A DNA stretch of 64,000 nucleotides from NCBI GenBank assembly GCA_000092065.1, contig CP000589.1; one strand, written 5' to 3'. This document shows, in pieces, positions 12,761 through 24,968 of this stretch (within the stretch, counting starts at the first letter, position 1; each line of letters begins with the position of its first letter). Both the position numbers and the translations under genes were made by a program. The DNA comes from Ostreococcus lucimarinus. Its lineage: Eukaryota. Below the pieces are notes generated by a model. That model did no database searches. It saw only the letters and a program-made list of their open reading frames with translations, and had not been told where the DNA came from.

Positions 12761-15418
12761 TTGCGAGCGATGGCGCGCGAAGACGGCGCGCGACGCAAGG
12801 AACGCAAGGACGAGCGCACGGTGGCGATGGAGAAGATGGTGATGGAACTCGCGGCGGCGGCGGCGGTGGTGGATGGGAATAAAACGTCGGTGAGCGAACG
12901 GGCGAGCGGGGCAAGCGGCGGGAGCAGCCTGACGAGGGCGCCGGACGCGGAGCGAGAGCGCGAGGAGGGACAAGCGTTGACGTTGGACGCGTTGGTGATG
13001 GCGAGCGCTGGATCGAATAAAAGAGCGAAGAGCGCGGGCGTTAAAGTGGCGAAACGGAAGAAGATGGAAGATAAGGGGGAGCGAAGGTGGTATTGTTGCT
13101 CGTGCAAGCAGACGCTGACGCCGGAACACTTCGATCCGAATTTGGAGACGTGTCGGTTGTGCTTGGCGAAACGTCGAGCGAAAGATCGGGCGAAGAAACG
13201 ACTTCGAGGGCTTCAGCTCAAGCATCACTTGTTGAGTGCGGATGAGAAAGATGTGGCGGCGTTTTTGTTGGGAGTGTATCATCCGGCGCTCACGCAGCAA
13301 GGGCCGCGATCTTCATCTTTTAACTCCATACAGATGAACGTGCAACGAGCGTCGATGGAAGTGAGCGCATTCGTAGAGGACTTCCGCAGCTTCCTCGAGG
13401 ACAAGCCCAAGGAACAAGCGGACAGATTGGTCCGCACGTTTTTGGGTTTGGACGATGCTGGAGAAAGGCTCACACCTCATCAAGTGATCAACGAGAAGGG
13501 TTCCGCGAAGAGGAATACGATGTCATCCAAAGCGAATAGCGCAAAGGCGACGCACAACTATCGCGCCCCAGCTTCATCGATGGGTGGCCGGCAAGAGTTG
13601 ACGAAGAGCCTGGACACCGTATACGATAAGTACGACGCGCTATTGAAAAACACCAGCGATGATCAAACGTGGGTTCGTTTCGCGGCGGAGAACGAGCAGG
13701 ACACTGATCTGGATGCTGAGAAGGTCAACTATTCCGCACCGATACATGAATCAGCTGCCGAAACCGGCACAAACGAGAAGGATGACGTGTACAGCGCCAT
13801 CATGCACGGCGCGGATCCCACCGTCAGTCATTACCTGTATCAATTCTTGTTCATGAATCAGCCGACAATCGGAGGCGAACACAGCACGATGGTCGTGGAG
13901 AGTGATCTCCCACAGCTTACGGGCCAGCTTCCATTGCGCGCAGTCGATAGCCTTTCGGAAGGGTCCAGCTTAAATGGTGCGACTAATGTGAGCTCGGAAT
14001 CGGACAACGTGTACAACACCTTGGATGAAGAGGAGCTGAACGGCAACGCATACGCGTTCAAGGGCTCGCTCGTGATGGGTTGGATTGGAGGCGCTCGTGA
14101 TGGAAAGAGAGAACTGCTAGCGAAAGAGAACGGTATCCTTCCGGACGATATGCACCCGCAAGCTGTGTTTAGCCATGGAAGACTGTTCGACGCGCGCACG
14201 CCTGGGAAGTTGGTTCCTCTCACCGAGACGGAGAACTTACACGGGTTTTCAGAAGATCTTGCGATTTTCCCCGTCAAGGATTCTTCGTCTGACATCGTTC
14301 GCATTCATATTCCGCCGGGATCTTTCAGCGAGGAGCTCGGTGTGAGAGCGTTGCACGATGGTCACTACATCGATTCTGAACTTCGCCACAGGCGCAACGG
14401 CGGAGCCGAGGTGATCCTATACCCGAACGGTAGAGACGATCGAGAGCGCAACGCAATCGTTATCCTCGGTGCTGTTCATTTACAATGTTTCGTTCGTAGC
14501 GGTACGGCGAAACAGATGCCTATCGGTTGCAACATCCCAGCGCTCTTCATACCGAGCCAAGCGCACGCGAAAGAGATTAGCGATGGCGTAGAGCACATTG
14601 CGCAAGTCAAGGGTACGAAAGCGGCCCGGCAGTTTTTGTCTTCGCTCGCGTACGTACTTGTGCACGGCGAACCAAAGAGCGCTAAGTTTGAGTTTGTCGT
14701 CGAAATGGCGCACATCCTCGCGCTCACGAGAACTTTGGATCTGCTCGAGCGATTGGCGATGTTGGCAAAGTCGTCGCTATCGAGCGATGATTCAGACACT
14801 TCTATCTCCGAAGTAGCGAGATTAGAAGTCTATAAGCCCTCGGATAATTTCTGGCAACACGCCGGTCATACCGACTCTTTTCTTGGAATCCTCCTTTGTC
14901 TTGTTGCGGGATTTATCCGTCTTATCGCTTCGGCTGTGAGCGGAGCGCGACTGAATTATGGATTCTATGCCACGCTCTTGGCCGCGGCCGCGCTTTCGGC
15001 AACGAACCCGAAGACCCGTGTAGACATCAAAAGCATTGCCTTCAACATGCTTTTTATCTGGGCACACGCAGCATCCATGCACTCAGATGATCTGACCAAT
15101 CAAATGACGTCTTACGGCAAGGCGCTGGTCATCACGCTTGCGCTCTCGGCACTGAACGCCTCGCATTCGCGCATGAGCAGCTCGTCAAGCTTTGTGTTAC
15201 CACAGCTCGCCTTTGCCGGAAGTGGCTATAACCCACACACCATTTTCCGCTTTATGAAGCAAGCGTTGCCTCAGGACGGAAGTATACCACAAAACGCGCT
15301 GCGAGCGCACGCCTGGACCGTTCACATCAGTTGCGCACTGCTGGCACCCGCGATCCTCATCTCTTGTATTTCGCAACTTCCAGGTGCACGAGTTCGCTCA
15401 AAATCTAAGCTTGCGTGA
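12761..15418 (+). CDS. large hypothetical protein with N-terminal Cys4 zinc-ribbon-like motif and C-terminal multi-TM region
   Basis: 885-aa ORF. CCSCKQTLTPEHFDPNLETCRLC motif. At least five hydrophobic helices in the last 200 aa. GC content falls sharply inside this gene (start of the low-GC island). No family recognised. Confidence 0.45.
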   Translation: MRAMAREDGARRKERKDERTVAMEKMVMELAAAAAVVDGNKTSVSERASGASGGSSLTRAPDAEREREEGQALTLDALVMASAGSNKRAKSAGVKVAKRKKMEDKGERRWYCCSCKQTLTPEHFDPNLETCRLCLAKRRAKDRAKKRLRGLQLKHHLLSADEKDVAAFLLGVYHPALTQQGPRSSSFNSIQMNVQRASMEVSAFVEDFRSFLEDKPKEQADRLVRTFLGLDDAGERLTPHQVINEKGSAKRNTMSSKANSAKATHNYRAPASSMGGRQELTKSLDTVYDKYDALLKNTSDDQTWVRFAAENEQDTDLDAEKVNYSAPIHESAAETGTNEKDDVYSAIMHGADPTVSHYLYQFLFMNQPTIGGEHSTMVVESDLPQLTGQLPLRAVDSLSEGSSLNGATNVSSESDNVYNTLDEEELNGNAYAFKGSLVMGWIGGARDGKRELLAKENGILPDDMHPQAVFSHGRLFDARTPGKLVPLTETENLHGFSEDLAIFPVKDSSSDIVRIHIPPGSFSEELGVRALHDGHYIDSELRHRRNGGAEVILYPNGRDDRERNAIVILGAVHLQCFVRSGTAKQMPIGCNIPALFIPSQAHAKEISDGVEHIAQVKGTKAARQFLSSLAYVLVHGEPKSAKFEFVVEMAHILALTRTLDLLERLAMLAKSSLSSDDSDTSISEVARLEVYKPSDNFWQHAGHTDSFLGILLCLVAGFIRLIASAVSGARLNYGFYATLLAAAALSATNPKTRVDIKSIAFNMLFIWAHAASMHSDDLTNQMTSYGKALVITLALSALNASHSRMSSSSSFVLPQLAFAGSGYNPHTIFRFMKQALPQDGSIPQNALRAHAWTVHISCALLAPAILISCISQLPGARVRSKSKLA

Positions 15419-15509
15419 GCAAGCGTTGTATGAGATAAGTTTTGGTACCATTACACTCTTTTAACGCTATCATCTACTAAACTGATATTCCGCAAGCTCT
15501 CCAATTGCT

Positions 15510-16553
15510 TCACGTTGCCGCGCCCGTTGTGTACAATTCCATCGCCAAACTCACTAGTGCGATGCTAATGATTATTCGCAGCGGCATCGTCTCGTGTTCG
15601 ATACATACGTGAATGATGGCGACCACGAGCATCGACAGCGCGGACACAAAACATTTGTAAATGTTGTCCAGGTACTTCAGAATGAAAGACACTGCCAACC
15701 CGCCGAACGACAGGACGACCAAACTTACCCAAGCATAAAAGTTGAATCCGGTAAAAAGTCCATTCTTTAACGCTTCTCCTTTCCAAACTATTGGAATCGC
15801 ACCACAAATCACGCCCCAAAAGTACAGTTGCATATTCTGCCAATGAATGCTATCCGTCGCCCCGTCTTGGTTGCTGCCCTTGAGCAGCTTCTCCGACAAC
15901 ACACTCCCGGACGCAGCGATGAACGTGTTTATCACCACAAGCACGTACCCATACACACTCCCGCGTAACTGATTAGAATCTGTGATCTCCGCCGTGACAG
16001 ATCCCAATAATAACAAGAACAGCGCTCTCCACTGCAACGAAGTTAACCGCCGCCCGAGCAGCGTCCACATCAGCACCCCGGTACTTAAAATTTTCAAGTT
16101 ATTCATGATCTGATACGTCGACGGCCCCAGTTCTTGTATGATGAGGAGCATACAGTTATTCGCGACGAAATAGCACAGCGCGGGAAGCGCAAACGAGGTG
16201 AAGCGTTTCGCGCTCCACGTCACTTCTTCGACTCCTCCGCACGCCCGCGACGTCGTCAAAAAGATGAACGACAACACCAGCTTCACCGACTCCATCGTGA
16301 ACGCCAGCACCACGGTATCGTACGGATAATCATCATCACTGTTCCGGCTCAGACTCGCGAATATCGTTCCCGCCACTTGCAGGAACAAGTACGACACCAT
16401 GCTCAACACCTTGATCGACAGCGGCGTTTCCGTCCTTCCGTCGCTCTTCTTCTCGGTCGGCGTCGCATCTCGCGCGAGTTCGCCGTCCGCATCCTTCCCA
16501 TCTCGCGCGAGCAGCGATTCGCGCTCATTCGCGCTCGCGCTCGCGCTCGCCAT
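15510..16553 (-). CDS. nucleotide-sugar transporter (SLC35A/UDP-galactose/CMP-sialic acid transporter family)
   Basis: 347-aa polytopic ORF. Conserved NST blocks (LKILSTGVLMWTLLGRRL, LLLLGSVTA, FALPALCYFVANNCMLLIIQELGPSTYQIMNNLKI). Confidence 0.75.
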   Translation of the reverse strand: MASASASANERESLLARDGKDADGELARDATPTEKKSDGRTETPLSIKVLSMVSYLFLQVAGTIFASLSRNSDDDYPYDTVVLAFTMESVKLVLSFIFLTTSRACGGVEEVTWSAKRFTSFALPALCYFVANNCMLLIIQELGPSTYQIMNNLKILSTGVLMWTLLGRRLTSLQWRALFLLLLGSVTAEITDSNQLRGSVYGYVLVVINTFIAASGSVLSEKLLKGSNQDGATDSIHWQNMQLYFWGVICGAIPIVWKGEALKNGLFTGFNFYAWVSLVVLSFGGLAVSFILKYLDNIYKCFVSALSMLVVAIIHVCIEHETMPLRIIISIALVSLAMELYTTGAAT

Positions 16554-16662
16554 CGCGTCGGTGTCTGCCGCAACGAACGATGGGTGTTACGTCGCGCGAG
16601 CCATCGCGGCAGACGCCGACGCGATTCGCGTCGTTCGCGGACGAAGCGACCGCGCGCGAACC
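16554..16662. promoter_or_regulatory. putative bidirectional promoter between divergently transcribed transporter and methyltransferase genes
   Basis: Only 109 bp separate the start codons at 16553 (minus) and 16663 (plus). This is an inference from gene arrangement only. Confidence 0.3.
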
Positions 16663-17955
16663 ATGGAATGCGTCGATTCTCTCGACGACACCGCGCACGC
16701 GGAGGACGGGCACGAGGAGTACTGCGCGGACACGGCGGTGTCGACGGCGCGCGTCCGGACGCTGCCGAAGACGCGCATCGTCGCGCGAAACGCGTGCGCG
16801 ATCACGGGCGCGAGCGACTTCGAGCCGCTGCTCACGCTGCGAGATTTTCCGGTGGGGATGTACTGCGTCCCGGAGGAGTGGGACGGCGTGGAGTACGTCG
16901 CGGACATGCGATGGTGCGTGAGCAAGAGCTCGGGGGTGATCCAGCTCGCGGAACTCATCGAGGCGGAGACGCTGTATGATTGTCAACACGAGAGCGGCGC
17001 GATCGGAGGACTGTGGAAGCGACATCACGAAGAATTTTGTGAGTTTATCGATGCGTACGGATGTGAGAGCGTGTTGGAGATCGGCAGTGGACACGGACAT
17101 CTGGCGAAGGAGTTTGTCGCGCGAAGACGCGGGAAATGCCGATGGACAATGGTGGAACCGAACTTGCCGAGTTGGTTGCTCACGGGTGATCATCCGAGCG
17201 AAATTCACCCGATCTCGGCGTGGTTTTGTGATTCGTTCGAATTACCGAAAGACGTACCGAAAATCGACGCTGTGGTACATTCGCACACGTTTGAGCACAT
17301 CTACGATTACGACGAGTTTCTTCGCAACGTGGCAAGAATGGAACCCAAGTTTCAAATATTTTCGGTGCCACACCAGCGGGAATGGCTGGCGCGTGGTTGG
17401 CAAAATAGCATCATGTTCGAACACCCGCAACTGTTGACGCCGAAAGCGATCGAGTACATTATGTCACGTCACGGTTTCGAGTTGCAAGGAAAGAAAGTTT
17501 TCGCCGACGGGCACTCAATGTTTTACGCGTTTTCATACGCGGGAAACGCGAGCAAAAGCGAGACATCGCAGCAATCTCTCGATGAGTACGCAGAGAACAA
17601 GCGTCTTTTTCGTAACTGGCTCAAATCCAACGTTGATTTCGTCCAGAATGTGAACGATCGCATCGATGAAGCGACTATGAATGGAGAAAAGCCAACAGTT
17701 TACATGTTTGGGGCGCACATCTTCACGCAGTACCTCGTCAGCTTTGGATTGCGTATATCCGCAGTTGAGGCGATTTTGGATAACGCCGAAGGAAAGCAAG
17801 GAAAGAGACTGTACGGCCTTCCTCTCTTGGTGCACTCTCCGAAAATTCTCTCTAATGTAGAACGACCAATCGTCATCTTACGAGTCGGCGCGTACGCCGA
17901 AGAAATAAAACGCGGCATTCTCGAAGTGAACGCTCGCACGGTCTTTTGGGAGTAA
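16663..17955 (+). CDS. bacterial-type sugar C-methyltransferase (TylC3-like; Methyltransf_13/14 plus C-methyltransferase C-terminal domain)
   Basis: N-terminal Cys-rich Zn-ribbon-like region. SAM motif I VLEIGSGHGHLAKEF. C-terminal domain resembling the C-methyltransferase C-terminal domain (PTVYMFGAHIFTQYLVSFGL). Low GC (about 50%) relative to the window average. The upstream in-frame ORF part (16399-16662) overlaps the transporter gene and is not counted. Confidence 0.6.
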   Translation: MECVDSLDDTAHAEDGHEEYCADTAVSTARVRTLPKTRIVARNACAITGASDFEPLLTLRDFPVGMYCVPEEWDGVEYVADMRWCVSKSSGVIQLAELIEAETLYDCQHESGAIGGLWKRHHEEFCEFIDAYGCESVLEIGSGHGHLAKEFVARRRGKCRWTMVEPNLPSWLLTGDHPSEIHPISAWFCDSFELPKDVPKIDAVVHSHTFEHIYDYDEFLRNVARMEPKFQIFSVPHQREWLARGWQNSIMFEHPQLLTPKAIEYIMSRHGFELQGKKVFADGHSMFYAFSYAGNASKSETSQQSLDEYAENKRLFRNWLKSNVDFVQNVNDRIDEATMNGEKPTVYMFGAHIFTQYLVSFGLRISAVEAILDNAEGKQGKRLYGLPLLVHSPKILSNVERPIVILRVGAYAEEIKRGILEVNARTVFWE

Positions 17956-18025: not shown

Positions 18026-20347
18026 TCACGCCATGACACTTGTCACACCCCGCGCGGCCCACTCGGCGTCGTACAAATGCGTAAACGCATTGGCCAGCCT
18101 TAAAATGTACATGAAGGGAAAGTTGGGTTCGCTGAGCTTGCTCGCATCGATGCACCCGAACCACACAGCCACAAACAAAGGAAATCCAGCCAAAGCGCTG
18201 CTTACTTGTGCGATGCGCTCATCTTTCGGTACGACGACGTTGTCCAACTTTTGCCTAGAATCATAATACGTGTTGACGAGCACTTCGGCCAATTGTTCAA
18301 AGTCCTCTATGTCACAGCTCTCGACGAGAAGGAACACGATGTCTTCGATACCTTGACCTGGGCGCGCGTACTGCCAATCAATAAAGATTGGTTCGCCGCC
18401 GTTCACTTGATAATCCCAGAATAAATTTGGAAATTTGAGGTCACCGTGAAGAAGCGTTTGCGGAGCTCTTCGAAGTCGCAGCTCGGCGTCCGCAAAGTTT
18501 GCCGCCGCGTGGTCAAACAGCACGAAAACTTGTTCACCGAGCGTATTGAACCATCGATTTCGAAACGTTGCGTAGTGTTCTTGCACGTGCTGTCGCATAT
18601 ACGTGTCATAAACCGATAGCCTTCCCAACGGCGCGCCTCGGAAGTGTGAATGCAACCTCGCCATCGTGTTCACCACCTTGAGGCCGCTTTCAAGACAAAA
18701 GTCTGGCGCTCGATCATACTTTCGTAAATCCTCCATGACGATAGCGCGTGACGTCGGAAGGACGCCGTAGCAGATCGGTACACGTACCGGCATGATACTC
18801 GCAAAATCTTCATAGAACTTACACTCGGTGTCGTGAAGGTTCAAGTGTTCGCTCACCTCCATCAAGACTCCGTGATCAGAGTTTTCTTGCTTCACCACAA
18901 GATGTCTTGAACCGGAGGTCGCCGAAAGAATTTCAGAAATGTAGCCACCGCTTGCTCGAATCGGATACACAACGGATCGTTGACCCAATACTTCGGACAG
19001 TTCGTTAGAAAGGTGCGCCACAGAATTCATCGTCTCCAATAACTCCTCTGGGTCTTCAGCGACATAATTCGCGATAAACGAATCGCTGCCTGACACGTTT
19101 GTATTAACAGAGACGACGTATTGGCATCCCGCTGCGCGTCCGGAAATCAAACCGCATCGAGAGTCCTCGAAGACAATGGAGTTTCCGATCGAGACTCCAA
19201 GTCTTCTCGCCGCTTTCAAGTACGGCTCCGCGTTTGGTTTACCAAATCTCACGTCACTCGCGGAAATAAGCGGTAAATCATCCAATGCAAGATGTTTCAA
19301 CAAAGCTTTGGCGGCGGTTCTGTTGGAATTAGTCACTACGGACACTGGTCCGAGCGCACGACACTTTTGCACAAATTCCACCGCGCCTGGAATTTCTTTG
19401 GTCTTTTCGATGTATCGCAAGAACGCTTCGTCTTTCTGCTCTGACGAAATCTGCAGCTTGAAACGCTGCGCGACTTGGGCGTCAGATTGTCCGCTGATGT
19501 GTTTGAGGAAGAATTCTTCGTCGACAAACGCGCCCATCGGAGCGAGGATCTCGCGCCAAGCCGCGACGTAGGCATCCGTGGTGTCCACAAGAGTACCGTC
19601 CAAATCAAACAAAAATGCATATCCCTGTTTGGACAAGTACTGCTCTAAACACTCAGGCGTACCGATGTTCGAGTATTGGTCCTCAGCGATGACGACGGAG
19701 CTGACGTGCTTGTCTCGCGCGACGTACTCTTTCAAAACGCATGAAACGTACGCCTCGCCGCGCTCAAACTTTCCTTCTTGAGTCAAAATATCCTTCGTCA
19801 ATTCAAGAAATTCTTTTTCACTCGCGAACCAGTACGCTCCAGTGTTCGCGTAAGGACCCACGCGCGACTTCTCCGCGATTTTGGTCACGCGTCCGCCGTC
19901 CCCGCTCGTCTCAACGTATGAATATTTTGCCGCCGTCTCACGCTCACGCGCGGATTCCTCAAAGCACAGGACCGCCGCGCGCACCTCCGGTTGTTTTTCC
20001 AGCGCCCGAAACCGTTCGATGACGTCGCAATGATACACCGCATCGCAGTCCACCAACAGGAGCGACGCGTCGTTTGTCGCCGACACCGTCCCCAGCGCGA
20101 GCGCCGCCGTCTCCGCCGCCCCGACCGTCGCACGCGCCAAGCGCACCGTGGTGAACCCTCGTTCGGGGACGGAATCATCGAAATTCGTCACCACGACGCA
20201 CGTGTCGCGGTTGTCATCGACGCACAGCGCTTCCGTGACGACGTGTATCATCGCCTTGCCGATCACTGGGATGAGCGGCTTGATGTCTTCGTAGCCTTGC
20301 GCTCGGAAGCGCTCGCCGCGTCCACACGCTGGAATGAGGACGCGCAT
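18026..20347 (-). CDS. tri-domain fusion: sugar-phosphate nucleotidyltransferase (MurU/LicC-like) + HAD beta-phosphoglucomutase-like phosphatase + choline-kinase/aminoglycoside-phosphotransferase-like kinase (AmgK-like)
   Basis: 773-aa ORF. N-terminal MRVLIPACGRGERF ... IKPLIPVIGKAMIHV (nucleotidyltransferase GxGxR motif). Central YAFLFDLDGTLVDTT ... SIVFEDSRCGLISGRAAG (HAD motifs I-III). C-terminal LLHGDLKFPNLFW (Brenner motif) and IDWQYARPGQGIEDIVFLLVE (ChoK/APH motif). Confidence 0.7.
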   Translation of the reverse strand: MRVLIPACGRGERFRAQGYEDIKPLIPVIGKAMIHVVTEALCVDDNRDTCVVVTNFDDSVPERGFTTVRLARATVGAAETAALALGTVSATNDASLLLVDCDAVYHCDVIERFRALEKQPEVRAAVLCFEESARERETAAKYSYVETSGDGGRVTKIAEKSRVGPYANTGAYWFASEKEFLELTKDILTQEGKFERGEAYVSCVLKEYVARDKHVSSVVIAEDQYSNIGTPECLEQYLSKQGYAFLFDLDGTLVDTTDAYVAAWREILAPMGAFVDEEFFLKHISGQSDAQVAQRFKLQISSEQKDEAFLRYIEKTKEIPGAVEFVQKCRALGPVSVVTNSNRTAAKALLKHLALDDLPLISASDVRFGKPNAEPYLKAARRLGVSIGNSIVFEDSRCGLISGRAAGCQYVVSVNTNVSGSDSFIANYVAEDPEELLETMNSVAHLSNELSEVLGQRSVVYPIRASGGYISEILSATSGSRHLVVKQENSDHGVLMEVSEHLNLHDTECKFYEDFASIMPVRVPICYGVLPTSRAIVMEDLRKYDRAPDFCLESGLKVVNTMARLHSHFRGAPLGRLSVYDTYMRQHVQEHYATFRNRWFNTLGEQVFVLFDHAAANFADAELRLRRAPQTLLHGDLKFPNLFWDYQVNGGEPIFIDWQYARPGQGIEDIVFLLVESCDIEDFEQLAEVLVNTYYDSRQKLDNVVVPKDERIAQVSSALAGFPLFVAVWFGCIDASKLSEPNFPFMYILRLANAFTHLYDAEWAARGVTSVMA

Positions 20348-20572: not shown

Positions 20573-21208
20573 CTAGCACGTGGGTCCACGCGCCGCGGGC
20601 CGCTCGGGAGGCGCCGGCTTGGCCGCCGCCGAGCCCGCGGCCTCAGCCTCAGCCGCGGCCGCGGCCGCGCGCTTCTCGAGCCAGTCTTTGGCTCGCTCGC
20701 GGTATTTAGCGTTCGCCTCTGTACTAATCTTGTTTGCCGCGTTACAGGCATTGATCATCGTCGTGTTGCCCTCAGAGATTCCGTGACACCAATGCACACC
20801 CATCCCGTCGCGATCCGGCCACGCCGAGTGCCCTAACGATATGCCGCGACGGACGTTGCAGTGGGCGTAGTCCGCCACGTGAAAAATAGATGCCTCAGGA
20901 CTCATTTGTGAACGGGGACTTACGCACGCGACGCTTTTCAATACATCCGTTCCTTGACCCCAAAAAGCATTGGCGCGCGAACTGTGCACGACGTAAAAGG
21001 CGTCGTTGTACTTCCAATACCAGTCCTCGTCAAAGATAAGCGTAGGTTGGACAGCGTCCGTGTCGTGGTTCGTGTCCCGACCGTCCCACAACGTCCTGGC
21101 AAAGTCCACGGGCGGTGGCGCGTACCAAAAGTACTCGGGTCGACCGTGCATGTACCACGAAAAGTGTATGTTTTTCTCCTTCTCCACTTTACGCGCCATG
21201 CAAAGCAA
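20573..21208 (-). pseudogene. truncated tandem paralog (C-terminal half only, no TM anchor) of the downstream 21237-22394 type-II membrane protein; possible pseudogene or truncated soluble paralog
   Basis: 211-aa ORF begins at the position homologous to residue ~190 of the neighbour (LCMARKVEKEKNIHFSWYMHGRPEYFWYAPPPVDF versus LCMARKVEQEKNIHFSWFVRSRPDYFWYGPPPVDF). About 80% nucleotide identity over about 280 bp. Both end in GPTC-stop. Confidence 0.4.
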
Positions 21209-21236: not shown

Positions 21237-22394
21237 CTAGCACGTCGGTCCCATCGATTGCATCGGCGGGTCGTCGGCGTACGCGTTCAAAGAGCGCCAG
21301 TGGCTTACTTGCGCTCGGTAAACTTTAGTCTCTGACACACTAATTGCCTGGGCACGCTCGCACGGATGTATGTGCCTCTGAAGTGTGTAATCTACGCAAC
21401 TCAGCGTACCTTGTCCTGGCTTTGCGGTTGGCCGAGCCGATCGCTCGAACCCGATTCCCACGGCCCTCGACGCCGCCCCGACGAGGTCTACCACTTTGTG
21501 AAGGGCTGTCTCCGGAGTCATACGTTCAAGGAAGACGTGACCGGTCGCGGGGATCTCAGCTCGGCATGGTAATTTCGACAAAATCGATGACCCTGGGCCC
21601 AGTATACCATCGGCGTGCGAACTGTGCACGGCGTATAAGGCGTCGTTGTACTTGTGACGCCAATCCTCGTCAAAGATGAACGCGTGCGCGCTGTCTGTAC
21701 CCCTACCGTCCCACAACGTCGTGGCAAAGTCCACGGGCGGCGGCCCGTACCAAAAGTAATCGGGTCGACTCCGAACGAACCACGAAAAGTGTATGTTTTT
21801 CTCCTGCTCCACTTTGCGCGCCATGCAAAGCAGCCTTTTGCTCAAATCGAACTGCGCGTACGTCGTCGCCGGCGAAAAGTAGTCGTCTTTTTTCACCTTG
21901 AATCCACGCGCAGCGCAATGCTGTCCCCAAGGATCCTTCGTGTCTAAGTCATAAGCCGAGGCCGTGTAAAACGAAACCGCCACGGGTCGAATGACGTCCA
22001 GCGCGCGTTGCAGCACGTGCGGATACACCTTTGGAAACATCGCCGATCGGTCTCGCCACCCGCTCACGTCTGCGATACTCAGGAGCATGATCGGGTGCAC
22101 GTTCACGCAGCGCTCCGCCATCCAATCCAGCACATTCGTCTTCAAACCCTTGGAGACGTGATCCAACACCATCCCGCGCACCGATCCTCCGATGAGGAAC
22201 GCGACGTCCGCGCGTCCCTCCGCGCACGACTGCGCGCCGAGCGCGTCGCGCCGCGCCGTCGCCGACGCGACGACGATCGCCACCGCCGCGATCAGCGACA
22301 ATAACGACCCAACGCGCGTCCGTCGCGCGCTCCTAGAGCCATCATCGCCGATGAGCGGCGTCGCCTCGTCCGTCATCGCGCCGCGAACACCCAT
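21237..22394 (-). CDS. type-II membrane protein (short cytosolic N-terminus, signal anchor, lumenal domain), lineage-specific; possibly glycosyltransferase-like
   Basis: 385-aa ORF. TM VGSLLSLIAAVAIVVASA. Conserved-looking blocks NIHFSWF, YFWYGPPPVDF, IFDEDW. No named family recognised. Confidence 0.5.
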   Translation of the reverse strand: MGVRGAMTDEATPLIGDDGSRSARRTRVGSLLSLIAAVAIVVASATARRDALGAQSCAEGRADVAFLIGGSVRGMVLDHVSKGLKTNVLDWMAERCVNVHPIMLLSIADVSGWRDRSAMFPKVYPHVLQRALDVIRPVAVSFYTASAYDLDTKDPWGQHCAARGFKVKKDDYFSPATTYAQFDLSKRLLCMARKVEQEKNIHFSWFVRSRPDYFWYGPPPVDFATTLWDGRGTDSAHAFIFDEDWRHKYNDALYAVHSSHADGILGPGSSILSKLPCRAEIPATGHVFLERMTPETALHKVVDLVGAASRAVGIGFERSARPTAKPGQGTLSCVDYTLQRHIHPCERAQAISVSETKVYRAQVSHWRSLNAYADDPPMQSMGPTC

Positions 22395-22455
22395 CGATCA
22401 CGAACCGCGTCGCCGCGCGCGCGACGCGCGTCGGTTTTCGCGTCGCCGCGCGCGC

Positions 22456-22598
22456 GACGCGCGTCGGTTTTCGCGTCGCCGCACCGCGCGCGCGATGGTG
22501 CGTCGCACAGTGCGACGCCGATGCATCGCATCGCGCGCGTCGCCATGTCCTCGGCGCCCCTGCACGACGCGCGCGCGCGCGGAAGGATGTCCGACGCG
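22456..22598 (+). repeat. dispersed duplicate of the 5' UTR / start-codon / transit-peptide region of the S9 peptidase gene (original at 24904-25046), with an extra 31-bp local tandem copy at 22421-22451
   Basis: About 143 bp, about 99% identical to 24904-25046, including atgcatcgcatcgcgcgcgtcgccatgtcctcggcg. Confidence 0.8.
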
Positions 22599-22619
22599 AA
22601 GGATGTCCGACGTATCAAT

Positions 22620-23029
22620 ACGTCGACGGCCCCAGTTCTTGTATGATGAGGAGCATACAGTTATTCGCGACGAAATAGCACAGCGCGGGAAGCGCAAACG
22701 AGGTGAAGCGTTTCGCGCTCCACGTCACTTCTTCGACTCCTCCGCACGCCCGCGACGTCGTCAAAAAGATGAACGACAACACCAGCTTCACCGACTCCAT
22801 CGTGAACGCCAGCACCACGGTATCGTACGGATAATCATCATCACTGTTCCGGCTCAGACTCGCGAATATCGTTCCCGCCACTTGCAGGAACAAGTACGAC
22901 ACCATGCTCAACACCTTGATCGACAGCGGCGTTTCCGTCCTTCCGTCGCTCTTCTTCTCGGTCGGCGTCGCATCTCGCGCGAGTTCGCCGTCCGCATCCT
23001 TCCCATCTCGCGCGAACAGCGGTTCGCGA
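22620..23029 (-). pseudogene. duplicated fragment of the nucleotide-sugar transporter gene (copy of 16114-16523, N-terminal ~145 codons without start codon)
   Basis: About 410 bp nearly identical to 16114-16523. The fragment lacks the first ~10 codons. It is fused in an ORF (22615-23565) to sequence antisense of the GT25 gene, so it is treated as a chimeric pseudogene. Confidence 0.7.
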
Positions 23030-23188: not shown

Positions 23189-24742
23189 ATGAGTGACAAA
23201 GACGCGCAAAGCATCTCTCGCGGCGAGCGCTCGAATTTGCTCGCGCGCAACGCCGCGAACGGCGTCGTTGAGGGTGTTGCGAGCATCCTGGACGAAGAGC
23301 GCGGTGAGACCGACGTGAGCGAGCGATCCCGAGCGAGAACGTCGACGTCGCGAGGATGTCTCGCGAGTGTTGCGCTGATGGCGTGTGCGGTCGGCGCGGG
23401 GATGGCGGTCGCGTCGCGCGGGGGGGTCGACGACGCGAGGACGAGCGCACGAGCTCGCGGCGGTGGGAAATCGACGCTCGGGATCAGTGGAGCGACACGA
23501 GCTCGCGGCGGTGGGAAATCGACGCTCGGGATCAGTGGAGCGACGGGAGTGCGGACGTATATCATAGCAGATACGTCGCCCGGAGACGAGATGGAGAGAT
23601 CTAGGAAAGGACGCGATTACGTGTTCAACCTGTTCAAAACGCACGGTGGTTTGAGCGACGCCGAAGCGCGCAATACTGTGGAAATCTCGAGTGCGACGTT
23701 TCCTTCGCTTTGGCCGGATACCTTCGAGACAGCGCGAAGCGCGACGCACGATGTACTAGCGGGAGCCCTTGCTGCTTCAGAAGCGAACGTTCCAACCAGT
23801 GAGTTGCCGTATCCCATCAGACAGGTTCACGAATCGCAGCTCAATCCACAGCACCGTTGCGTCGGCGAAAAATGCGTATTCCCGTATAACCACCACCTTG
23901 GATGTCTTCTATCTCACATGTCTGTGTGGAAGAAAGCTATTTCGCGAGGTGAGGATCGGTTTGCCGTGTGGGAGCAAGATGGTATGGGGATCGCTTCCGT
24001 GAGCCCGCTTGACTACACAGAGCTCGGACGCCAGCTTCCTCGCGACGCAGATATGGTCTGGCTCCTCCCCATTGGAAGAAGCACCGGTCAATTCGTGAAA
24101 AAGTTCCGCTCAAGGGCGTTTGGCACGTGGGGGAAAGGTACCTGGGGTCTCGTAAAGACAGACTGGTCGCCCGAATCGATGCACACGGCGATGAATTCAA
24201 CGCACGTTTATTTGTACAAGTGGAACAAAATGTGCTCGTGGGCAGGAACGGCAGCTCTCATGTTCACCAAGCAAGGCGTCGAGAAAATTCTTCGGTACAG
24301 TACCGAACACAGTCTCGACATGATCGATGCTTTCCTCATTGGCGGATGCATCCATAAATCGGGAAAGACGAGTCGTCTTTCCTTGAACTGTTATCACGCG
24401 TCGAGCGTGCCAACCAAGAAAGAGCTCCTGGGTGGAATCGTGCCCGATTGGTACACTGACGAAACCGTGGGCGATCGAGCACTTCCTCAAGAGCAGGTTG
24501 ACGCCATGGATCGGGATGACGCCAAGTTCAACTCGCTTGGTTGTCAGCGCGGCGGCGACGAGTTCAAGTCAAAATCTGCCTGGATTCCCACGTCCTGGGC
24601 TGGAGACGACTCCGCGGATTCGTGCGTTCCCTCCTGGAACGCCCCGGTGGACGTGTGCGATGCATCCGTGAAGTATCCACTCGATGGACACAAGTACTCA
24701 TACCTCGGCAGCGCGATGTTGCGTACAAAGCCCGAGCGTTAG
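23189..24742 (+). CDS. glycosyltransferase family 25 (Lic2A/LPS-beta-1,4-galactosyltransferase-like) type-II membrane protein
   Basis: 517-aa ORF. Signal anchor CLASVALMACAVGAGMAVA. GT25 hallmark GCLLSHMSVWKKAISRGEDRFAVWEQD. Internal 48-bp tandem duplication encoding ARGGGKSTLGISGAT twice in the stem. Confidence 0.6.
   Translation: MSDKDAQSISRGERSNLLARNAANGVVEGVASILDEERGETDVSERSRARTSTSRGCLASVALMACAVGAGMAVASRGGVDDARTSARARGGGKSTLGISGATRARGGGKSTLGISGATGVRTYIIADTSPGDEMERSRKGRDYVFNLFKTHGGLSDAEARNTVEISSATFPSLWPDTFETARSATHDVLAGALAASEANVPTSELPYPIRQVHESQLNPQHRCVGEKCVFPYNHHLGCLLSHMSVWKKAISRGEDRFAVWEQDGMGIASVSPLDYTELGRQLPRDADMVWLLPIGRSTGQFVKKFRSRAFGTWGKGTWGLVKTDWSPESMHTAMNSTHVYLYKWNKMCSWAGTAALMFTKQGVEKILRYSTEHSLDMIDAFLIGGCIHKSGKTSRLSLNCYHASSVPTKKELLGGIVPDWYTDETVGDRALPQEQVDAMDRDDAKFNSLGCQRGGDEFKSKSAWIPTSWAGDDSADSCVPSWNAPVDVCDASVKYPLDGHKYSYLGSAMLRTKPER
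23449..23544 (+). repeat. perfect 48-bp tandem duplication inside the GT25 coding region
   Basis: acgagctcgcggcggtgggaaatcgacgctcgggatcagtggagcgac occurs twice consecutively (23449-23496 and 23497-23544). Confidence 0.9.
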
Positions 24743-24968
24743 CGACGCTTGTAAAGAAACAGCCTAGGGGTGCTTGAATCCGGTATTGGGAATTTCCCGA
24801 TACGTATCAAAAACGACTGTTTTCATACTGTTTGCCCATACGAAAAGCCTAATACGTTGATACGCCAATACGGTATCAGCTCGTATCAAGTGCAGCAGGC
24901 CTAGACGCGCGTCGGTTTTCGCGTCGCCGCACCGCGCGCGCGATGGTGCGCGGCACAGTGCGACGCCG

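What the first reader, a model, noticed from the sequence alone, without database searches (positions are those of the whole stretch)
13300..24900. Low-GC compositional island carrying a cell-surface glycan biosynthesis gene set
GC content drops from about 70% (e.g. 1861-1920) to about 48-52% (e.g. 17281-17340) between roughly 13.3 and 24.9 kb and returns to about 70% at the S9 peptidase gene. Within this stretch sit, consecutively: a nucleotide-sugar transporter, a bacterial-type (TylC3-like) sugar C-methyltransferase, a nucleotidyltransferase-HAD-kinase fusion, two tandem type-II membrane paralogs, and a GT25 (Lic2A-like) glycosyltransferase. The block also contains several recent duplications. 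This combination - foreign composition, bacterial-flavoured sugar-activation enzymes, a Golgi transporter, glycosyltransferases and structural instability - resembles the low-GC 'outlier' regions of Mamiellophyceae thought to encode variable surface glycans involved in virus susceptibility. It may represent an undescribed modified-sugar pathway acquired horizontally.
Basis: partly seen in the sequence, partly recalled or inferred. Interest (0 to 1): 0.85.

Follow-up and report, generated by a model that had tools for sequence, protein, structure and literature searches.

The report
Mobile surface-glycan gene island, Ostreococcus
A 9.5-kb block of sugar-activating, sugar-methylating, sugar-transporting and glycosyltransferase genes sits between two housekeeping genes of the tiny marine alga Ostreococcus lucimarinus. 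It differs between wild strains, two of its genes lie on the 'viral immunity' chromosome in a sister species, and giant viruses carry four of the same enzyme families as a cluster.

Summary
The window is Ostreococcus lucimarinus, from a collinear 671-kb chromosome, not an outlier chromosome. The GC dip is real but modest: 55.6% against 61.3%, not 70% falling to 50%. Its left 2 kb belongs to a vertically inherited, fast-evolving gene.

Synteny defines the true island as about 15.42-24.97 kb. Other Ostreococcus lineages have unk882 directly next to the S9 peptidase. Here six genes lie between them:
- an SLC35 nucleotide-sugar transporter (NST);
- a TylC3/TcaB9-type methyltransferase homologue (MT);
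- a nucleotidyltransferase-HAD-kinase fusion (FUS);
- a DUF7796-like type-II membrane protein plus a truncated copy (parA, parB);
- a GT25-fold transferase.

The GT25 segment is a 2.3-kb insertion bracketed by a 145-nt duplication. It is present or absent among >99%-identical wild strains.

The MT-FUS pair is orthologous to ostta19g00460/470 on the O. tauri small outlier chromosome, where it is down-regulated in virus-resistant lines. The full-length fusion has essentially no bacterial relatives but many in giant-virus genomes. There it clusters with MT, GT25 and DUF7796 genes near the capsid gene.

Verdict: an outlier-chromosome-type glycan cassette relocated to a standard chromosome, and not a recent bacterial import. 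The sugar it makes is unknown.

The parts
10308..12500 (+). Left flank: Rsm22-type mitochondrial ribosome methyltransferase. Housekeeping and syntenic.
   Evidence: PF09243, 5.8e-47. The order HDAC-YchF-Rsm22-unk882-S9 is kept in other Ostreococcus lineages.
12770..15418 (+). unk882: an 882-aa protein with no family match, a Cys-rich N-terminal motif and a multi-TM C-terminus. Low GC (54.9%) but NOT part of the insertion: it is vertically inherited and fast-evolving.
   Evidence: No Pfam or NCBIfam hit. Orthologues at 38-43% identity directly abut the S9 gene in L257-L262, L264, L265 and L320. These orthologues are 2-5 GC points below their loci in every lineage.
15510..16553 (-). NST: SLC35-type Golgi nucleotide-sugar transporter, 347 aa. 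First gene of the inserted island.
   Evidence: PF04142, 9.3e-41. TIGR00803, 77.5 bits, above its cut-off. Absent from this site in other Ostreococcus lineages. dN/dS 0.59 against L256.
16660..17955 (+). MT: cytosolic class-I SAM methyltransferase homologous over its full length to NDP-hexose 3-C-methyltransferases (TylC3/TcaB9/MtmC type).
   Evidence: Profile against solved structures: 4rv9 4e-24, TcaB9 8e-17, KijD1 5e-14. 68% identical to the O. tauri chr19 orthologue. dN/dS 0.11. The Zn-ribbon cysteines are lost.
18026..20347 (-). FUS: 773-aa fusion of a sugar-1-phosphate-type nucleotidyltransferase, a HAD (beta-PGM/sugar-phosphatase type) domain and an APH/EcKL-type kinase. Convergent with MT.
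   Evidence: Pfam. Profile against solved structures. Catalytic motifs of all three domains are invariant across algal and viral homologues. 62% identical to O. tauri ostta19g00470. dN/dS 0.26.
20573..21199 (-). parB: a truncated copy (C-terminal 208 aa only) of the type-II membrane protein family.
   Evidence: It aligns only to the C-terminal half of full-length relatives. Sister strains L254 and L256 carry a full-length B-type gene here.
21237..22394 (-). parA: a 385-aa type-II membrane protein of an Ostreococcus-restricted family, probably a remote DUF7796 relative.
   Evidence: Only 18 homologues, all at least 40% identical. hhalign against giant-virus DUF7796 gives P=0.002-0.004, with four invariant motifs in register. 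A family member lies next to FUS in L333 as well. dN/dS 0.87.
22406..22471 (.). 33-nt x2 tandem repeat upstream of parA. It overlaps the start of the 145-nt repeat.
   Evidence: Also two copies in L254.
22456..22600 (.). Left copy of the 145-nt direct repeat that brackets the GT25 segment.
   Evidence: 99% identical to 24904-25048. L254 has one copy joining 22600 to 24904, i.e. an empty site.
22618..23028 (-). 411-nt fragment copied from the 5' part of the island's own NST gene (16113-16523). A pseudogene piece inside the inserted GT25 segment.
   Evidence: 300 nt at 100% identity and 411 nt at 99.3%. The translation matches NST residues from about 11 to 147.
23189..24742 (+). GT25-related type-II glycosyltransferase, 517 aa. 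The usual E-D-D motif reads E-Q-D-G.
   Evidence: Pfam GT25: 18.4 bits, below the 24-bit cut-off. 10 of 29 family members hit GT25, best 3.9e-8. hhalign against viral GT25: 66% probability, E 5.8e-5. AF2 pLDDT is >90 for residues 120-505, and the top 15 Foldseek PDB hits are all GT25: COLGALT1 (3.4e-7) and 210-aa beta-1,4-galactosyltransferases.
23448..23543 (+). 48-nt x2 tandem repeat encoding a 16-aa unit in the stem region of the GT25-like protein. Copy number varies between strains.
   Evidence: One copy in P0303, two in the window, and a further 12-aa duplication in L255.
24904..25048 (.). Right copy of the 145-nt direct repeat. It includes the first 80 nt of the S9 coding sequence.
24969..27761 (+). 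Right flank: S9 prolyl-oligopeptidase-family peptidase. Housekeeping and syntenic.
   Evidence: PF00326, 2.6e-29. 81-85% identical orthologues lie directly after unk882 in other lineages. dN/dS 0.04.

Best explanation
Window 15,419-24,968 is a lineage-specific insertion into a collinear, standard chromosome of Ostreococcus lucimarinus. [quoted passage not shown]

Inferred mechanism:
1. In the cytosol, the three-domain enzyme FUS turns a sugar or sugar phosphate into a nucleotide-activated sugar. The HAD domain removes or moves a phosphate, the kinase makes the sugar-1-phosphate, and the nucleotidyltransferase adds NMP.
2. The TylC3/TcaB9-type methyltransferase methylates that sugar, probably as an NDP-4-keto intermediate made by a dehydratase encoded elsewhere.
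3. The SLC35 transporter imports the product into the Golgi.
4. Type-II membrane transferases (the GT25-fold protein and the DUF7796-like paralogues) attach it to surface glycoconjugates.

The cassette moves between genomic sites in different Ostreococcus lineages. It keeps rearranging by duplication, truncation and insertion, so wild strains differ in which transferases they carry. Four of its enzyme families (FUS, MT, GT25, DUF7796) occur as a cluster in many giant viruses, so it is an old module shared between these algae and Nucleocytoviricota.

Shown: the insertion, the polymorphism, the orthology to O. tauri SOC genes, the family and fold assignments, and the viral clustering.
Inferred: the order of the reactions, the identity of the sugar, surface display, and an effect on virus adsorption.
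For: Organism and site. The YchF protein is identical to O. lucimarinus XP_001419688.1, on a 670,853-bp contig. The SOC is about 150 kb.

Insertion. In nine metagenome loci of other Ostreococcus lineages (S9 81-85% identical) the order is HDAC-YchF-Rsm22-unk882-S9, with none of NST, MT, FUS, parA/B or GT25-like between them.

Polymorphism.
- L254 (S9 99.9%) has a single copy of the 145-nt repeat joining window 22600 to 24904. L255 is filled like the window.
- L256 and L266 lack the GT25 segment.
- L254 and L256 carry a full-length B paralogue.
- The repeat number in the GT25-like stem varies.

Mobility. FUS homologues lie on O. tauri chr19, beside Ku and PAP_fibrillin in L333, and in transposon- or ORFan-rich contexts in L012 and L334.

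Link to virus resistance. The O. tauri orthologues ostta19g00460/470, with the adjacent GT25 (480) and TPT transporter (490), have log2FC of -1.3 to -2.6 in OtV5-resistant lines (PMC5082852 S2 Table).

Functional genes. dN/dS is 0.11 for MT and 0.26 for FUS. dS (0.08-0.17) is similar to the flanks (0.13-0.14). Catalytic motifs of all three FUS domains are invariant.

Enzymology.
- The nucleotidyltransferase domain is closest to sugar-1-P nucleotidyltransferases (4evw 2.7e-24, then UGPase, GlmU, ManC, RmlA).
- The HAD domain is closest to sugar phosphatases and beta-PGM.
- MT is full-length homologous to NDP-hexose 3-C-methyltransferases.
- The GT25 fold is supported.

Topology. FUS and MT lack TM segments, while parA and the GT25-like protein have one N-terminal TM (sequence).

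Module conservation.
- In 80 giant-virus loci carrying FUS, recurrent neighbours are MT (21 loci, median 0.64 kb away), GT25 (19), DUF7796 (12, median 0.17 kb), GT11, HtrL, DegT aminotransferase and the NCLDV capsid gene.
- 33 of 80 MT-anchored viral loci have FUS, or unfused nucleotidyltransferase + HAD genes, within 5 kb.
- A bacterial MT homologue is translationally coupled to a nucleotidyltransferase-APH fusion.
Against: - No biochemical or expression data exist for this locus. The expression link comes from orthologues in another species, and the effect there is modest (2- to 6-fold).
- No 4,6-dehydratase or ketoreductase lies in the island, so a C-methyl branched sugar is not demonstrated. 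The algal MT subgroup has lost the Zn-ribbon cysteines of TcaB9-type enzymes.
- The kinase domain has no close characterised relative, so its substrate could be a non-sugar.
- DUF7796 homology of the paralogues is statistically weak (P about 0.002-0.004; the AF2 model failed with pLDDT 37).
- parA evolves almost neutrally (dN/dS 0.87) and parB is truncated. Either diversifying selection or decay would explain this.
- The first Asp of the GT25 metal-binding motif is replaced (E-Q-D-G), so activity is uncertain.
- An origin from the SOC of O. lucimarinus itself was not tested, because chr18 was not available to me.
Confidence: 0.6

Rival explanations
1. Recent horizontal acquisition of a bacterial sugar-pathway operon, with the low GC a remnant of the donor's composition.
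For: MT has many bacterial homologues at about 40% identity over 91% of its length. A bacterial homologue sits in a polysaccharide operon next to a nucleotidyltransferase-kinase fusion. GT25 is a family known from bacterial LPS synthesis. The NST-MT-FUS block is 53.4% GC against about 61% for the flanks.
Against: - Among 185,579 bacterial and archaeal species genomes, the full-length fusion occurs on one 16-30 kb contig binned as 'bacterium'.
- Algal homologues at 49-79% identity, sitting at several genomic sites, show the genes are old in Mamiellophyceae.
- dS of the island genes equals that of the flanking genes against the L256 lineage.
- NST is a eukaryotic SLC35 transporter.
- In the NJ tree the algal MT clade is sister (100% bootstrap) to a group holding a cryptophyte transcript and a giant-virus MAG, not to the bacterial clade.
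- The vertically inherited neighbour unk882 is just as GC-poor, and 53% is the GC of the alga's own SOC.
Confidence: 0.07
2. The cassette (MT, FUS, DUF7796-like, GT25-like) entered the Mamiellophyceae ancestor from a giant virus, or went from alga to virus. It is in effect an anciently endogenised viral glycosylation module that now shapes host surface glycans.
For: - The only abundant full-length relatives of FUS outside the algae are on giant-virus contigs: at least 80 loci and 168 candidates, on contigs up to 421 kb, with the NCLDV capsid gene within 10 kb in 9 loci.
- The same four families cluster there.
- MT relatives up to 41% identical occur on viral contigs.
- One giant-virus MAG groups with the sister clade of the algal MT.
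Against: - Identity to viral FUS is only 26-31%. Viral loci average 30% GC.
- There are no viral hallmark genes in or near the island.
- The FUS-adjacent viral MTs are the most distant branch of the MT tree.
- No outgroup exists to root the FUS tree, so the direction is undetermined.
- IMG/VR binning can include host DNA.
- This rival is compatible with the best explanation as its deep history.
Confidence: 0.2
3. The pathway activates a phospho-alcohol head group (phosphocholine, phosphoethanolamine or similar, LicA/LicC-like) rather than a sugar. MT methylates that head group, and the transferases add it to glycans or lipids.
For: Source annotations of distant homologues read 'choline kinase' and 'CTP:phosphocholine cytidylyltransferase'. 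The kinase profile weakly touches choline kinase 4r77 (E 0.19). A PAP2_C (sphingomyelin-synthase-type) gene lies next to FUS in L008. LicC-type enzymes share the NTP_transferase fold (my knowledge).
Against: - The nucleotidyltransferase domain scores best with sugar-1-P nucleotidyltransferases, and the HAD domain with sugar phosphatases and beta-PGM.
- MT is full-length homologous to NDP-sugar C-methyltransferases and keeps the E-H pair aligned to the TcaB9/MtmC 'HEH'.
- Viral neighbours include a DegT-type NDP-ketosugar aminotransferase and several glycosyltransferases.
- An SLC35 nucleotide-sugar transporter is part of the island.
Confidence: 0.12
4. There is no meaningful island. The GC dip is ordinary gene-to-gene variation, and the genes are a chance neighbourhood.
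For: GC is spiky throughout the window (sd 6.6 points). Other stretches are nearly as low. The lowest-GC gene is an unrelated CFAP58-like coiled-coil gene. Half of the island (paralogues and GT25 segment) has near-normal GC.
Against: - Synteny shows a discrete 9.5-kb insertion.
- MT-FUS adjacency is conserved in O. tauri and in giant viruses.
- A paralogue sits next to FUS in L333 too.
- Island genes differ in GC and GC3 from the other genes of the window (p=0.003 and 0.009).
Confidence: 0.03

Closest known systems
Small outlier chromosome (SOC) of Mamiellophyceae, specifically the O. tauri chr19 block ostta19g00460-00490 (C-methyltransferase, 'aminoglycoside phosphotransferase', GT25, triose-phosphate-type transporter). 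Yau et al. 2016, PMC5082852; Blanc-Mathieu et al. 2017, PMC5498103.
   Same: - Orthologous MT (68% identity) and FUS (62%) in the same convergent arrangement.
- A GT25-type transferase and a sugar transporter are adjacent.
- GC about 50-53%.
- Lack of synteny between species, recent duplications and strain polymorphism.
   Different: - Here the cassette lies on a 671-kb collinear chromosome between housekeeping genes, not on the SOC.
- The transporter is SLC35/PF04142 rather than TPT/PF03151.
- The GT25-like protein is only distantly related to ostta19g00480 (21% identity over 97 aa).
- DUF7796-like paralogues lie next to FUS instead of GT25.
- Published SOC dynamics describe translocations from standard chromosomes onto the SOC. 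An SOC-type cassette residing in a standard chromosome is the reverse situation.
AmgK / MurU / MupP salvage route to UDP-MurNAc in Pseudomonas: anomeric sugar kinase of the APH fold, sugar-1-P uridylyltransferase, HAD sugar-6-P phosphatase (my knowledge of the pathway).
   Same: The same three enzyme classes, and the same logic: dephosphorylate, re-phosphorylate at C1, then add a nucleotide. The HAD domain gives a sub-threshold hit to the MupP model (7.6e-12).
   Different: Here the three activities are fused in one polypeptide in the order nucleotidyltransferase-HAD-kinase. No equivalog cut-off is reached (45 vs 359 bits for MupP). The kinase has no detectable specific similarity to AmgK or NahK. 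The substrate is unknown.
TylC3 / TcaB9 / MtmC / KijD1 NDP-hexose 3-C-methyltransferases of actinomycete antibiotic pathways.
   Same: Full-length collinear homology: N-terminal domain, class-I SAM domain and C-terminal PF08484-type domain. The E-H pair aligns with the 'HEH' of MtmC.
   Different: Identity is under 25%. Three of the four Zn-ribbon cysteines are missing in the algal and bacterial subgroup. No partner 4,6-dehydratase lies in the island. The host is a eukaryote and the context is a Golgi glycosylation pathway.
Glycosylation gene clusters of giant viruses (Megavirinae-type clusters that decorate capsid fibrils; my knowledge).
   Same: Clusters of nucleotide-sugar enzymes and glycosyltransferases lie near the capsid gene. 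They include FUS, MT, GT25, DUF7796, GT11, GT4 and a DegT aminotransferase.
   Different: I found no description of the three-domain fusion or of its link to a C-methyltransferase in the papers searched. The algal copy is chromosomal, has host-like GC, and is joined to a eukaryotic Golgi transporter.
Hypervariable cell-surface islands of marine bacteria (Prochlorococcus genomic islands, O-antigen clusters), as compared with SOCs by Moreau et al. 2012 (PMC3491373).
   Same: A low-GC, strain-variable block of sugar-modifying genes, thought to be selected by viruses.
   Different: This is in a eukaryotic nuclear genome. The variation arises from duplication and template-switch-like rearrangement (145-nt target duplication, captured 411-nt NST fragment), not from phage or integrase-mediated exchange.

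Membership tests
Mamiellophyceae SOC-type hypervariable glycan region | GC content several points below the genome average | tested here: met
   The NST-MT-FUS block is 53.4% against 61% for the flanks. The O. lucimarinus genome is 60% and its SOC 53%. The paralogue and GT25 segments are only 58-60%.
Mamiellophyceae SOC-type hypervariable glycan region | Located on the small outlier chromosome | tested here: not met
   The contig is 670,853 bp, against an SOC of about 150 kb. The flanking gene order is conserved across Ostreococcus and partly in more distant Mamiellales.
Mamiellophyceae SOC-type hypervariable glycan region | Enriched in glycosyltransferases, methyltransferases, sugar transporters and sugar-nucleotide enzymes | tested here: met
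   Four of the six genes have such an assignment, and the paralogue pair may too.
Mamiellophyceae SOC-type hypervariable glycan region | No synteny between species; presence/absence and rearrangement between strains | tested here: met
   Absent at this site in other lineages. Empty and filled alleles and a truncated paralogue among >98.6%-identical strains.
Mamiellophyceae SOC-type hypervariable glycan region | Expression changes with virus resistance | not testable with these tools
   Literature only, and only for the O. tauri orthologues: log2FC -1.29 (MT) and -1.90 (FUS).
TylC3/TcaB9 NDP-hexose C-methyltransferases | Three-domain architecture with full-length sequence homology | tested here: met
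   Profile positions 7-363 align to chain residues 11-393 of 4rv9 (4e-24), and likewise to TcaB9 and KijD1. PF08484 is present in many family members.
TylC3/TcaB9 NDP-hexose C-methyltransferases | N-terminal CxxC...CxxC zinc site | tested here: not met
   The window protein keeps one Cys of four. The FUS-adjacent giant-virus MTs keep all four.
TylC3/TcaB9 NDP-hexose C-methyltransferases | Conserved active-site Glu-His pair | tested here: met
   'FEH' (E254 nearly invariant, H255 invariant) aligns with 'HEH' of MtmC. The catalytic role of that pair is from my memory of the TcaB9 literature.
TylC3/TcaB9 NDP-hexose C-methyltransferases | Acts on an NDP-4-keto-6-deoxyhexose | not testable with these tools
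   No dehydratase lies in the island. DegT aminotransferases, which use the same class of substrate, are neighbours in 7 viral loci.
Glycosyltransferase family 25 | Pfam PF01755 at the gathering score | tested here: not met
   18.4 bits against a cut-off of 24. 10 of 29 family members match at E up to 0.01, best 3.9e-8.
Glycosyltransferase family 25 | GT25-type GT-A fold | tested here: met
   The AF2 model has pLDDT >90 over residues 120-505. The top 15 Foldseek PDB hits are all GT25: COLGALT1 (3.4e-7) and 8xkd-type galactosyltransferases with TM about 0.5 normalised to the target.
Glycosyltransferase family 25 | E-D-D metal/nucleotide motif | tested here: inconclusive
   The window has E-Q-D-G and the family consensus is E-S-D-G. 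The invariant first Asp of the viral GT25 set aligns with Gln.
SLC35 nucleotide-sugar transporters | PF04142 / TIGR00803 above the cut-off, multi-TM | tested here: met
   140 bits against 27, and 77.5 against 55.85.
DUF7796 (PF25072) | Pfam model at the gathering score | tested here: not met
   parA scores 15.2 bits against 27. The L333 member scores 13.1 bits.
DUF7796 (PF25072) | Profile-profile homology and shared invariant motifs | tested here: inconclusive
   hhalign gives P=0.0019 over 146 columns and P=0.0042 over 190 columns. The G-R, R-P(D), N-D and P-E-T motifs are in register. Both families lie next to FUS.
AmgK-MurU-MupP type salvage activation | Equivalog-level match to any of the three enzymes | tested here: not met
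   The MupP model scores 45 bits against a cut-off of 359. There is no AmgK or MurU hit. Only the enzyme classes and the logic are shared.
Bacterial horizontal transfer candidate | Closest relatives outside the lineage are bacterial | tested here: not met
   FUS: one doubtful contig in the bacterial and archaeal genome set against at least 80 giant-virus loci. MT: the sister group holds a cryptophyte and a giant-virus MAG, with bacteria one node further out.

The most novel reading that the evidence does not exclude
The MT-FUS-DUF7796-GT25 module makes one particular methylated (possibly C-branched) sugar epitope that both Mamiellophyceae cells and many giant viruses display. The alga's copy is the determinant of a surface glycan that prasinoviruses recognise or mimic. 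Because the cassette hops between the outlier chromosome and standard chromosomes, and gains or loses transferases by template-switch rearrangements, it acts as a mobile, population-level switch of virus susceptibility. It would also be a direct trace of ancient gene exchange between giant viruses and their algal hosts.
Probability: 0.2. Interest if true: 0.85.

Novelty: new variant of a known kind. Interest (0 to 1): 0.62.

Why it matters
Resistance of marine picoalgae to prasinoviruses is linked to the hypervariable small outlier chromosome and its glycosyltransferases, but no specific glycan pathway or receptor has been pinned down.

This locus offers a compact, defined candidate:
- two conserved cytosolic enzymes under purifying selection;
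- a dedicated Golgi transporter;
- fast-evolving, strain-variable transferases.

Its orthologues are known to be turned down in resistant O. tauri. The locus also shows that such cassettes are not confined to the outlier chromosome, and that natural populations segregate filled and empty alleles. These alleles could be correlated with virus host range.

The conservation of four of its enzyme families as a cluster next to capsid genes in many giant viruses suggests shared glycan chemistry between virus and host. That makes questions of mimicry, receptor identity and the direction of gene flow directly testable.

Tried and rejected
- Structure prediction of parA from its shallow family alignment failed (pLDDT 37), so no fold search was done for it. 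A profile of giant-virus DUF7796 proteins found nothing among solved structures, and no paper mentions DUF7796.
- The kinase-domain profile found no solved relative better than E=0.01, so the kinase substrate class could not be narrowed.
- NCBIfam gave only sub-threshold matches for FUS, and none for MT, parA or unk882.
- I considered that the distant FUS homologues named 'bacterium' or 'HAD hydrolase' were bacterial. I rejected this because the scan of bacterial and archaeal genomes returned one full-length locus, identical to the single named contig. Viral contigs with capsid genes hold many.
- I considered the bacterial nucleotidyltransferase-APH fusion next to MT in L010 as the direct ancestor of FUS. 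tblastn found no similarity at 1e-4, so it is only an analogue.
- I considered the second low-GC patch (54-56.5 kb) as a second island and rejected it. It is a Lys/Glu-rich CFAP58-type coiled-coil gene.
- I considered unk882 as part of the island and rejected it on synteny.
- No tRNA genes or inverted repeats mark the island borders.
- A search for papers describing the fusion or the cassette in giant viruses found nothing relevant.
- A first attempt at a bootstrapped tree timed out. The tree used is a simple NJ tree on Kimura distances, so deep nodes should be treated with caution.

Full report
**Shorthand.** NST is the nucleotide-sugar transporter gene. MT is the methyltransferase. FUS is the nucleotidyltransferase-HAD-kinase fusion. 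parA and parB are the two type-II membrane paralogues. unk882 is the 882-aa gene of unknown family left of the island. S9 is the peptidase gene to its right. SOC is the small outlier chromosome.

**1. What the window is.**
The YchF-type GTPase at 9025-10242(-) is identical to O. lucimarinus CCE9901 XP_001419688.1, on a 670,853-bp contig. The O. lucimarinus genome is 60% GC, and its SOC (chr18) is about 150 kb at 53% GC (PMC3491373 Tables 1-2; PMC5082852 Table 1). The window averages 60.3% GC. Its genes around the finding are housekeeping: an ankyrin-HDAC, YchF, Rsm22, an S9 peptidase and a protein kinase. Their order is conserved in other Ostreococcus lineages. The finding therefore lies on a standard, collinear chromosome.

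**2. The observation.**
- *GC.* It is spiky everywhere: 500-bp windows range 48-77%, sd 6.6 points. The flagged 13300-24900 is 55.6% against 61.3% for the rest. That makes it the lowest 11.6-kb stretch, but only marginally.
- *By block*: NST-MT-FUS 53.4%, paralogues 60.1%, GT25 segment 58.2%, unk882 54.9%, flanks 61.0 and 61.4%.
- *By gene.* The six island genes have lower GC (0.564 vs 0.614, p=0.003) and lower GC3 (0.668 vs 0.741, p=0.009) than the other 35. NST, FUS and MT rank 2nd to 4th lowest of 41 genes.
- *Other low patch.* The lowest gene is an unrelated CFAP58-type coiled-coil gene whose low GC comes from its amino-acid composition.
- *Conclusion.* The dip is real, but it is 5-8 points, not 20.
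- *Duplications* are all confirmed.

**3. Where the island really is.**
I scanned metagenome contigs with the S9 peptidase and compared its surroundings.
- *Other Ostreococcus lineages.* In nine loci from at least three lineages (S9 81-85% identical; locus GC 55-61%) the order is HDAC-YchF-Rsm22-unk882-S9-kinase. unk882 ends a few hundred bases before S9. None of NST, MT, FUS, parA/B or GT25-like is present.
- *More distant relatives* (S9 58-62% identical) have Rsm22 next to S9.
- *The island* is therefore an insertion of about 9.5 kb (15,419-24,968) specific to the O. lucimarinus lineage.
It is vertically inherited but fast-evolving: 38-43% identity where its neighbours keep 57-85%. It is 2-5 GC points below its surroundings in every lineage. 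Low GC at this site is therefore not a signature of foreign DNA.

**4. Variation among close strains.**
- *Same arrangement.* Contigs L001-L006 (99.8-100% identical) share the window's arrangement.
- *Empty site.* L254 (S9 99.9%) aligns to 21227-22600 and to 24904 onward, with the 145-nt repeat present once. It lacks 22601-24903. L255 is filled like the window.
- *Sister lineage.* L256 and L266 (S9 98.6-98.8%) also lack the GT25 segment. L254 and L256 carry a full-length B-type paralogue where the window has only its C-terminal 208 codons.
- *What was inserted.* The 2,303-nt segment holds the GT25-like gene and a 411-nt, 99-100% identical piece of the island's own NST gene. It is bracketed by a 145-nt target duplication that includes the first 80 nt of the S9 coding sequence.
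- *Likely mechanism.* This looks like a template-switching or repair-type rearrangement. That is an inference.
- *Repeat variation.* The 16-aa stem repeat of the GT25-like protein occurs in one copy in P0303 and two in the window. L255, which also has two, adds a 12-aa duplication.
- *Age.* dS against L256 is similar for island genes (0.08-0.17) and flanks (0.13-0.14). The island therefore predates that split.

**5. What the genes are.**
- *NST.* An SLC35 nucleotide-sugar transporter.
- *MT, family.* A profile of the family matches the NDP-hexose 3-C-methyltransferases MtmC (4e-24), TcaB9 (8e-17) and KijD1 (5e-14) over their full length. Many members carry PF08484.
- *MT, active site.* A Glu-His pair aligns with the 'HEH' of MtmC. 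The zinc-ribbon cysteines are lost in the algal and bacterial subgroup.
- *FUS, domains.* Residues 1-240 are closest to sugar-1-phosphate nucleotidyltransferases (4evw 2.7e-24, then UGPase, GlmU, ManC and RmlA). Residues 244-445 are closest to HAD sugar phosphatases and beta-phosphoglucomutase. The C-terminal 320 residues are a divergent APH/EcKL-type kinase with no close solved relative.
- *FUS, motifs.* The signature motifs of all three domains are invariant or nearly so across algal and viral homologues: GxGxR...K; DxDGT...K...ED; K...E...HGDxKxxN...DWQ.
- *parA/parB.* A family with only 18 detectable members, each with an N-terminal membrane anchor. Pfam DUF7796 is hit weakly (15 bits).
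- *parA/parB against viral DUF7796.* Profile-profile comparison with bona fide giant-virus DUF7796 proteins gives P=0.002-0.004 over 146-190 columns, with four invariant motifs in register. The structure model failed.
- *GT25-like, sequence evidence.* Sub-threshold in Pfam. It belongs to a very small family: 56 representatives among 1.84 billion proteins, of which 10 of 29 hit GT25.
- *GT25-like, fold evidence.* A confident model has only GT25 structures as its top 15 PDB matches. Its E-D-D motif reads E-Q-D-G.
- *Selection* (dN/dS): S9 0.04, MT 0.11, FUS 0.26, NST 0.59, parA 0.87. The core enzymes are conserved and the membrane components evolve fast.

**6. Relatives elsewhere in the algae.**
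- *Homologues.* FUS has homologues at 49-79% identity in many marine contigs and in O. tauri.
- *O. tauri.* FUS and MT are adjacent and convergent on CAID01000019.2 (chromosome 19, the SOC; locus GC 50.4%). A GT25 gene and a TPT transporter lie next to them.
- *Virus resistance.* Yau et al. 2016 list exactly these genes, ostta19g00460, 470, 480 and 490, as down-regulated in OtV5-resistant lines: log2FC -1.29, -1.90, -2.56 and -1.24.
- *Other lineages.* FUS lies beside Ku and PAP_fibrillin with a 32%-identical parA-family gene next to it in L333. In L012 it sits among Mutator, reverse-transcriptase and FkbM fragments as a frameshifted pseudogene. In L013 it sits among GT90 and FUT8-like genes.
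- *Conclusion.* The cassette changes genomic address between lineages.
- *Published background.* SOC hypervariability and translocations between the SOC and standard chromosomes are documented (PMC5498103; PMC13390643). Gene-content variation on standard chromosomes was found to be rare in O. tauri: 3 insertions and 10 deletions among 13 strains.

**7. Relatives outside the algae.**
- *Bacteria and archaea.* Among 185,579 species genomes, only one contig carries the full-length fusion. It is identical to the single 'bacterium'-labelled metagenome contig.
- *Giant viruses.* IMG/VR holds at least 80 full-length relatives at 26-31% identity, with 168 candidates. Many are on giant-virus MAGs up to 421 kb, with mean locus GC of 30%. 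The NCLDV major capsid gene lies within 10 kb in nine loci.
- *Neighbours of viral FUS.* MT homologues in 21 loci (median 0.64 kb away), GT25 in 19 loci (4.8e-16) and DUF7796 in 12 loci (median 0.17 kb; 2.4e-14). HtrL/YibB, GT11, GT4, GT7 and a DegT-type aminotransferase also recur.
- *Scan anchored on MT.* 33 of 80 viral loci had FUS, or separate nucleotidyltransferase and HAD genes, within 5 kb.
- *MT relatives.* They reach about 41% identity both in bacteria and on viral contigs.
- *NJ tree.* The Ostreococcus clade (100% bootstrap) joins other eukaryote transcripts (100%). It is then sister (100%) to a group containing a Hemiselmis transcript and a giant-virus MAG. Bacteria plus some viral contigs form the next clade (87%).
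- *Bacterial analogue.* In a gammaproteobacterial MAG, MT overlaps by 4 nt a nucleotidyltransferase-APH fusion in a polysaccharide operon.
- *Conclusion.* The MT + nucleotidyltransferase (+HAD +kinase) module is a conserved functional unit. Its three-domain fused form is shared essentially only by Mamiellophyceae and giant viruses. The direction of transfer cannot be decided from these data.

**8. How it most likely works.**
- *Shown.* Enzyme classes, intact motifs, purifying selection on MT and FUS, membrane anchors on parA and the GT25-like protein and none on MT or FUS, conserved clustering.
- *Inferred, cytosolic steps.* The HAD domain dephosphorylates, or isomerises, a sugar phosphate. 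The kinase makes the sugar-1-phosphate. The nucleotidyltransferase makes the NDP-sugar. This is the logic of the MupP-AmgK-MurU route.
- *Inferred, modification and display.* MT methylates the sugar, by analogy with TcaB9 at C3 of an NDP-4-keto intermediate. NST carries the product into the Golgi. The GT25-fold and DUF7796-like type-II proteins transfer it to surface glycoconjugates.
- *Inferred, population level.* Loss, gain and rapid divergence of the transferases then change the displayed glycan. The O. tauri expression data suggest that the pathway is characteristic of the virus-susceptible state.
- *Main alternative chemistry.* Activation of a phospho-alcohol head group (LicA/LicC-like). 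I rate it lower because the nucleotidyltransferase, HAD, MT and neighbouring genes all point to sugars.

**9. Novelty and verdict.**
The kind is known: a low-GC, variable block of glycan genes tied to virus resistance in Mamiellophyceae. I did not find the following described:
- an SOC-type cassette inserted in a standard chromosome, with segregating filled and empty alleles in wild populations;
- the recognition that MT-FUS, with GT25 and DUF7796-type genes, is a conserved module of giant-virus genomes, so that the 'bacterial' flavour of the fusion is really a giant-virus connection.

Interest is moderate to high because the locus gives a small, testable candidate pathway for the virus-relevant surface glycan.

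Noticed in passing
window 54213-56558 (-): A 781-aa protein with a CFAP58 central coiled-coil domain (PF21771, 6.5e-44) in Ostreococcus, a genus described as lacking flagella. It is the lowest-GC gene of the window (50.8%, GC2 0.34), which explains the second low-GC patch at 54-56.5 kb.
   Followed up: partly
window 12770-15418 (+): unk882 is a syntenic but very fast-evolving gene with no family match (38-43% identity between Ostreococcus lineages, against 57-85% for its neighbours). It has a Cys-rich N-terminal motif and a multi-TM C-terminus, and is consistently GC-poorer than its surroundings. The island inserted right at its 3' end.
   Followed up: partly
window, e.g. 1501-2000, 12501-13000, 16501-17000, 22001-22500, 28001-29000, 41501-42000, 45001-45500: Sharp GC spikes of 70-77% recur at gene 5' ends and in divergent intergenic regions, so the window alternates between about 55% gene bodies and about 70-75% starts.
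   Followed up: no
L010 1-17137 (Gammaproteobacteria MAG, GCA_035287225.1): A bacterial polysaccharide operon in which the MT homologue (42% identity) overlaps by 4 nt an NTP_transf_3+APH fusion. It is preceded by GT2, HAD Hydrolase_3, GatZ/KbaZ-like and cupin (PMI-like) genes. This is an uncharacterised pathway with the same enzyme logic as the algal cassette.
   Followed up: partly
L012 10073-12388: A FUS homologue (64-76% identity) is split over three reading frames, i.e. a pseudogene. It is surrounded by Mutator transposase, reverse transcriptase and FkbM-methyltransferase fragments, which is a decaying copy in an SOC-like context.
   Followed up: partly
L008/L009/L014 (one ~30-kb contig, 39% GC, labelled 'bacterium'): This is the only 'bacterial' carrier of the three-domain fusion. 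It also encodes two cytosine DNA methylases, a phage tail-collar domain protein, PAP2_C, a DUF7796 protein, UDP-glucose dehydrogenase and an epimerase. Its cellular or viral nature is unclear.
   Followed up: partly
L013, L256, L265 (NCBI assembly GCA_014466335.1): One NCBI assembly holds contigs of at least two different picoalgae: O. lucimarinus-like contigs at 55-58% GC and a 45.8%-GC contig with a 58%-identical FUS. It looks like a mixed or metagenomic assembly.
   Followed up: no
giant-virus loci L094-L173 (e.g. L155 4515-6194; L100 7433-8584): In giant-virus genomes the FUS gene often lies within 10 kb of the major capsid protein gene and of a DegT/DnrJ/EryC1 sugar aminotransferase. This suggests a capsid-decoration gene cluster.
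   Followed up: partly
window 27870-28749, both strands: A 70-75% GC stretch carries long overlapping ORFs on both strands (262 aa Arg/Pro-rich on +, 290 aa Asp-rich on -). There is no Pfam hit for the minus-strand ORF, and which one is the real gene was not resolved.
   Followed up: no
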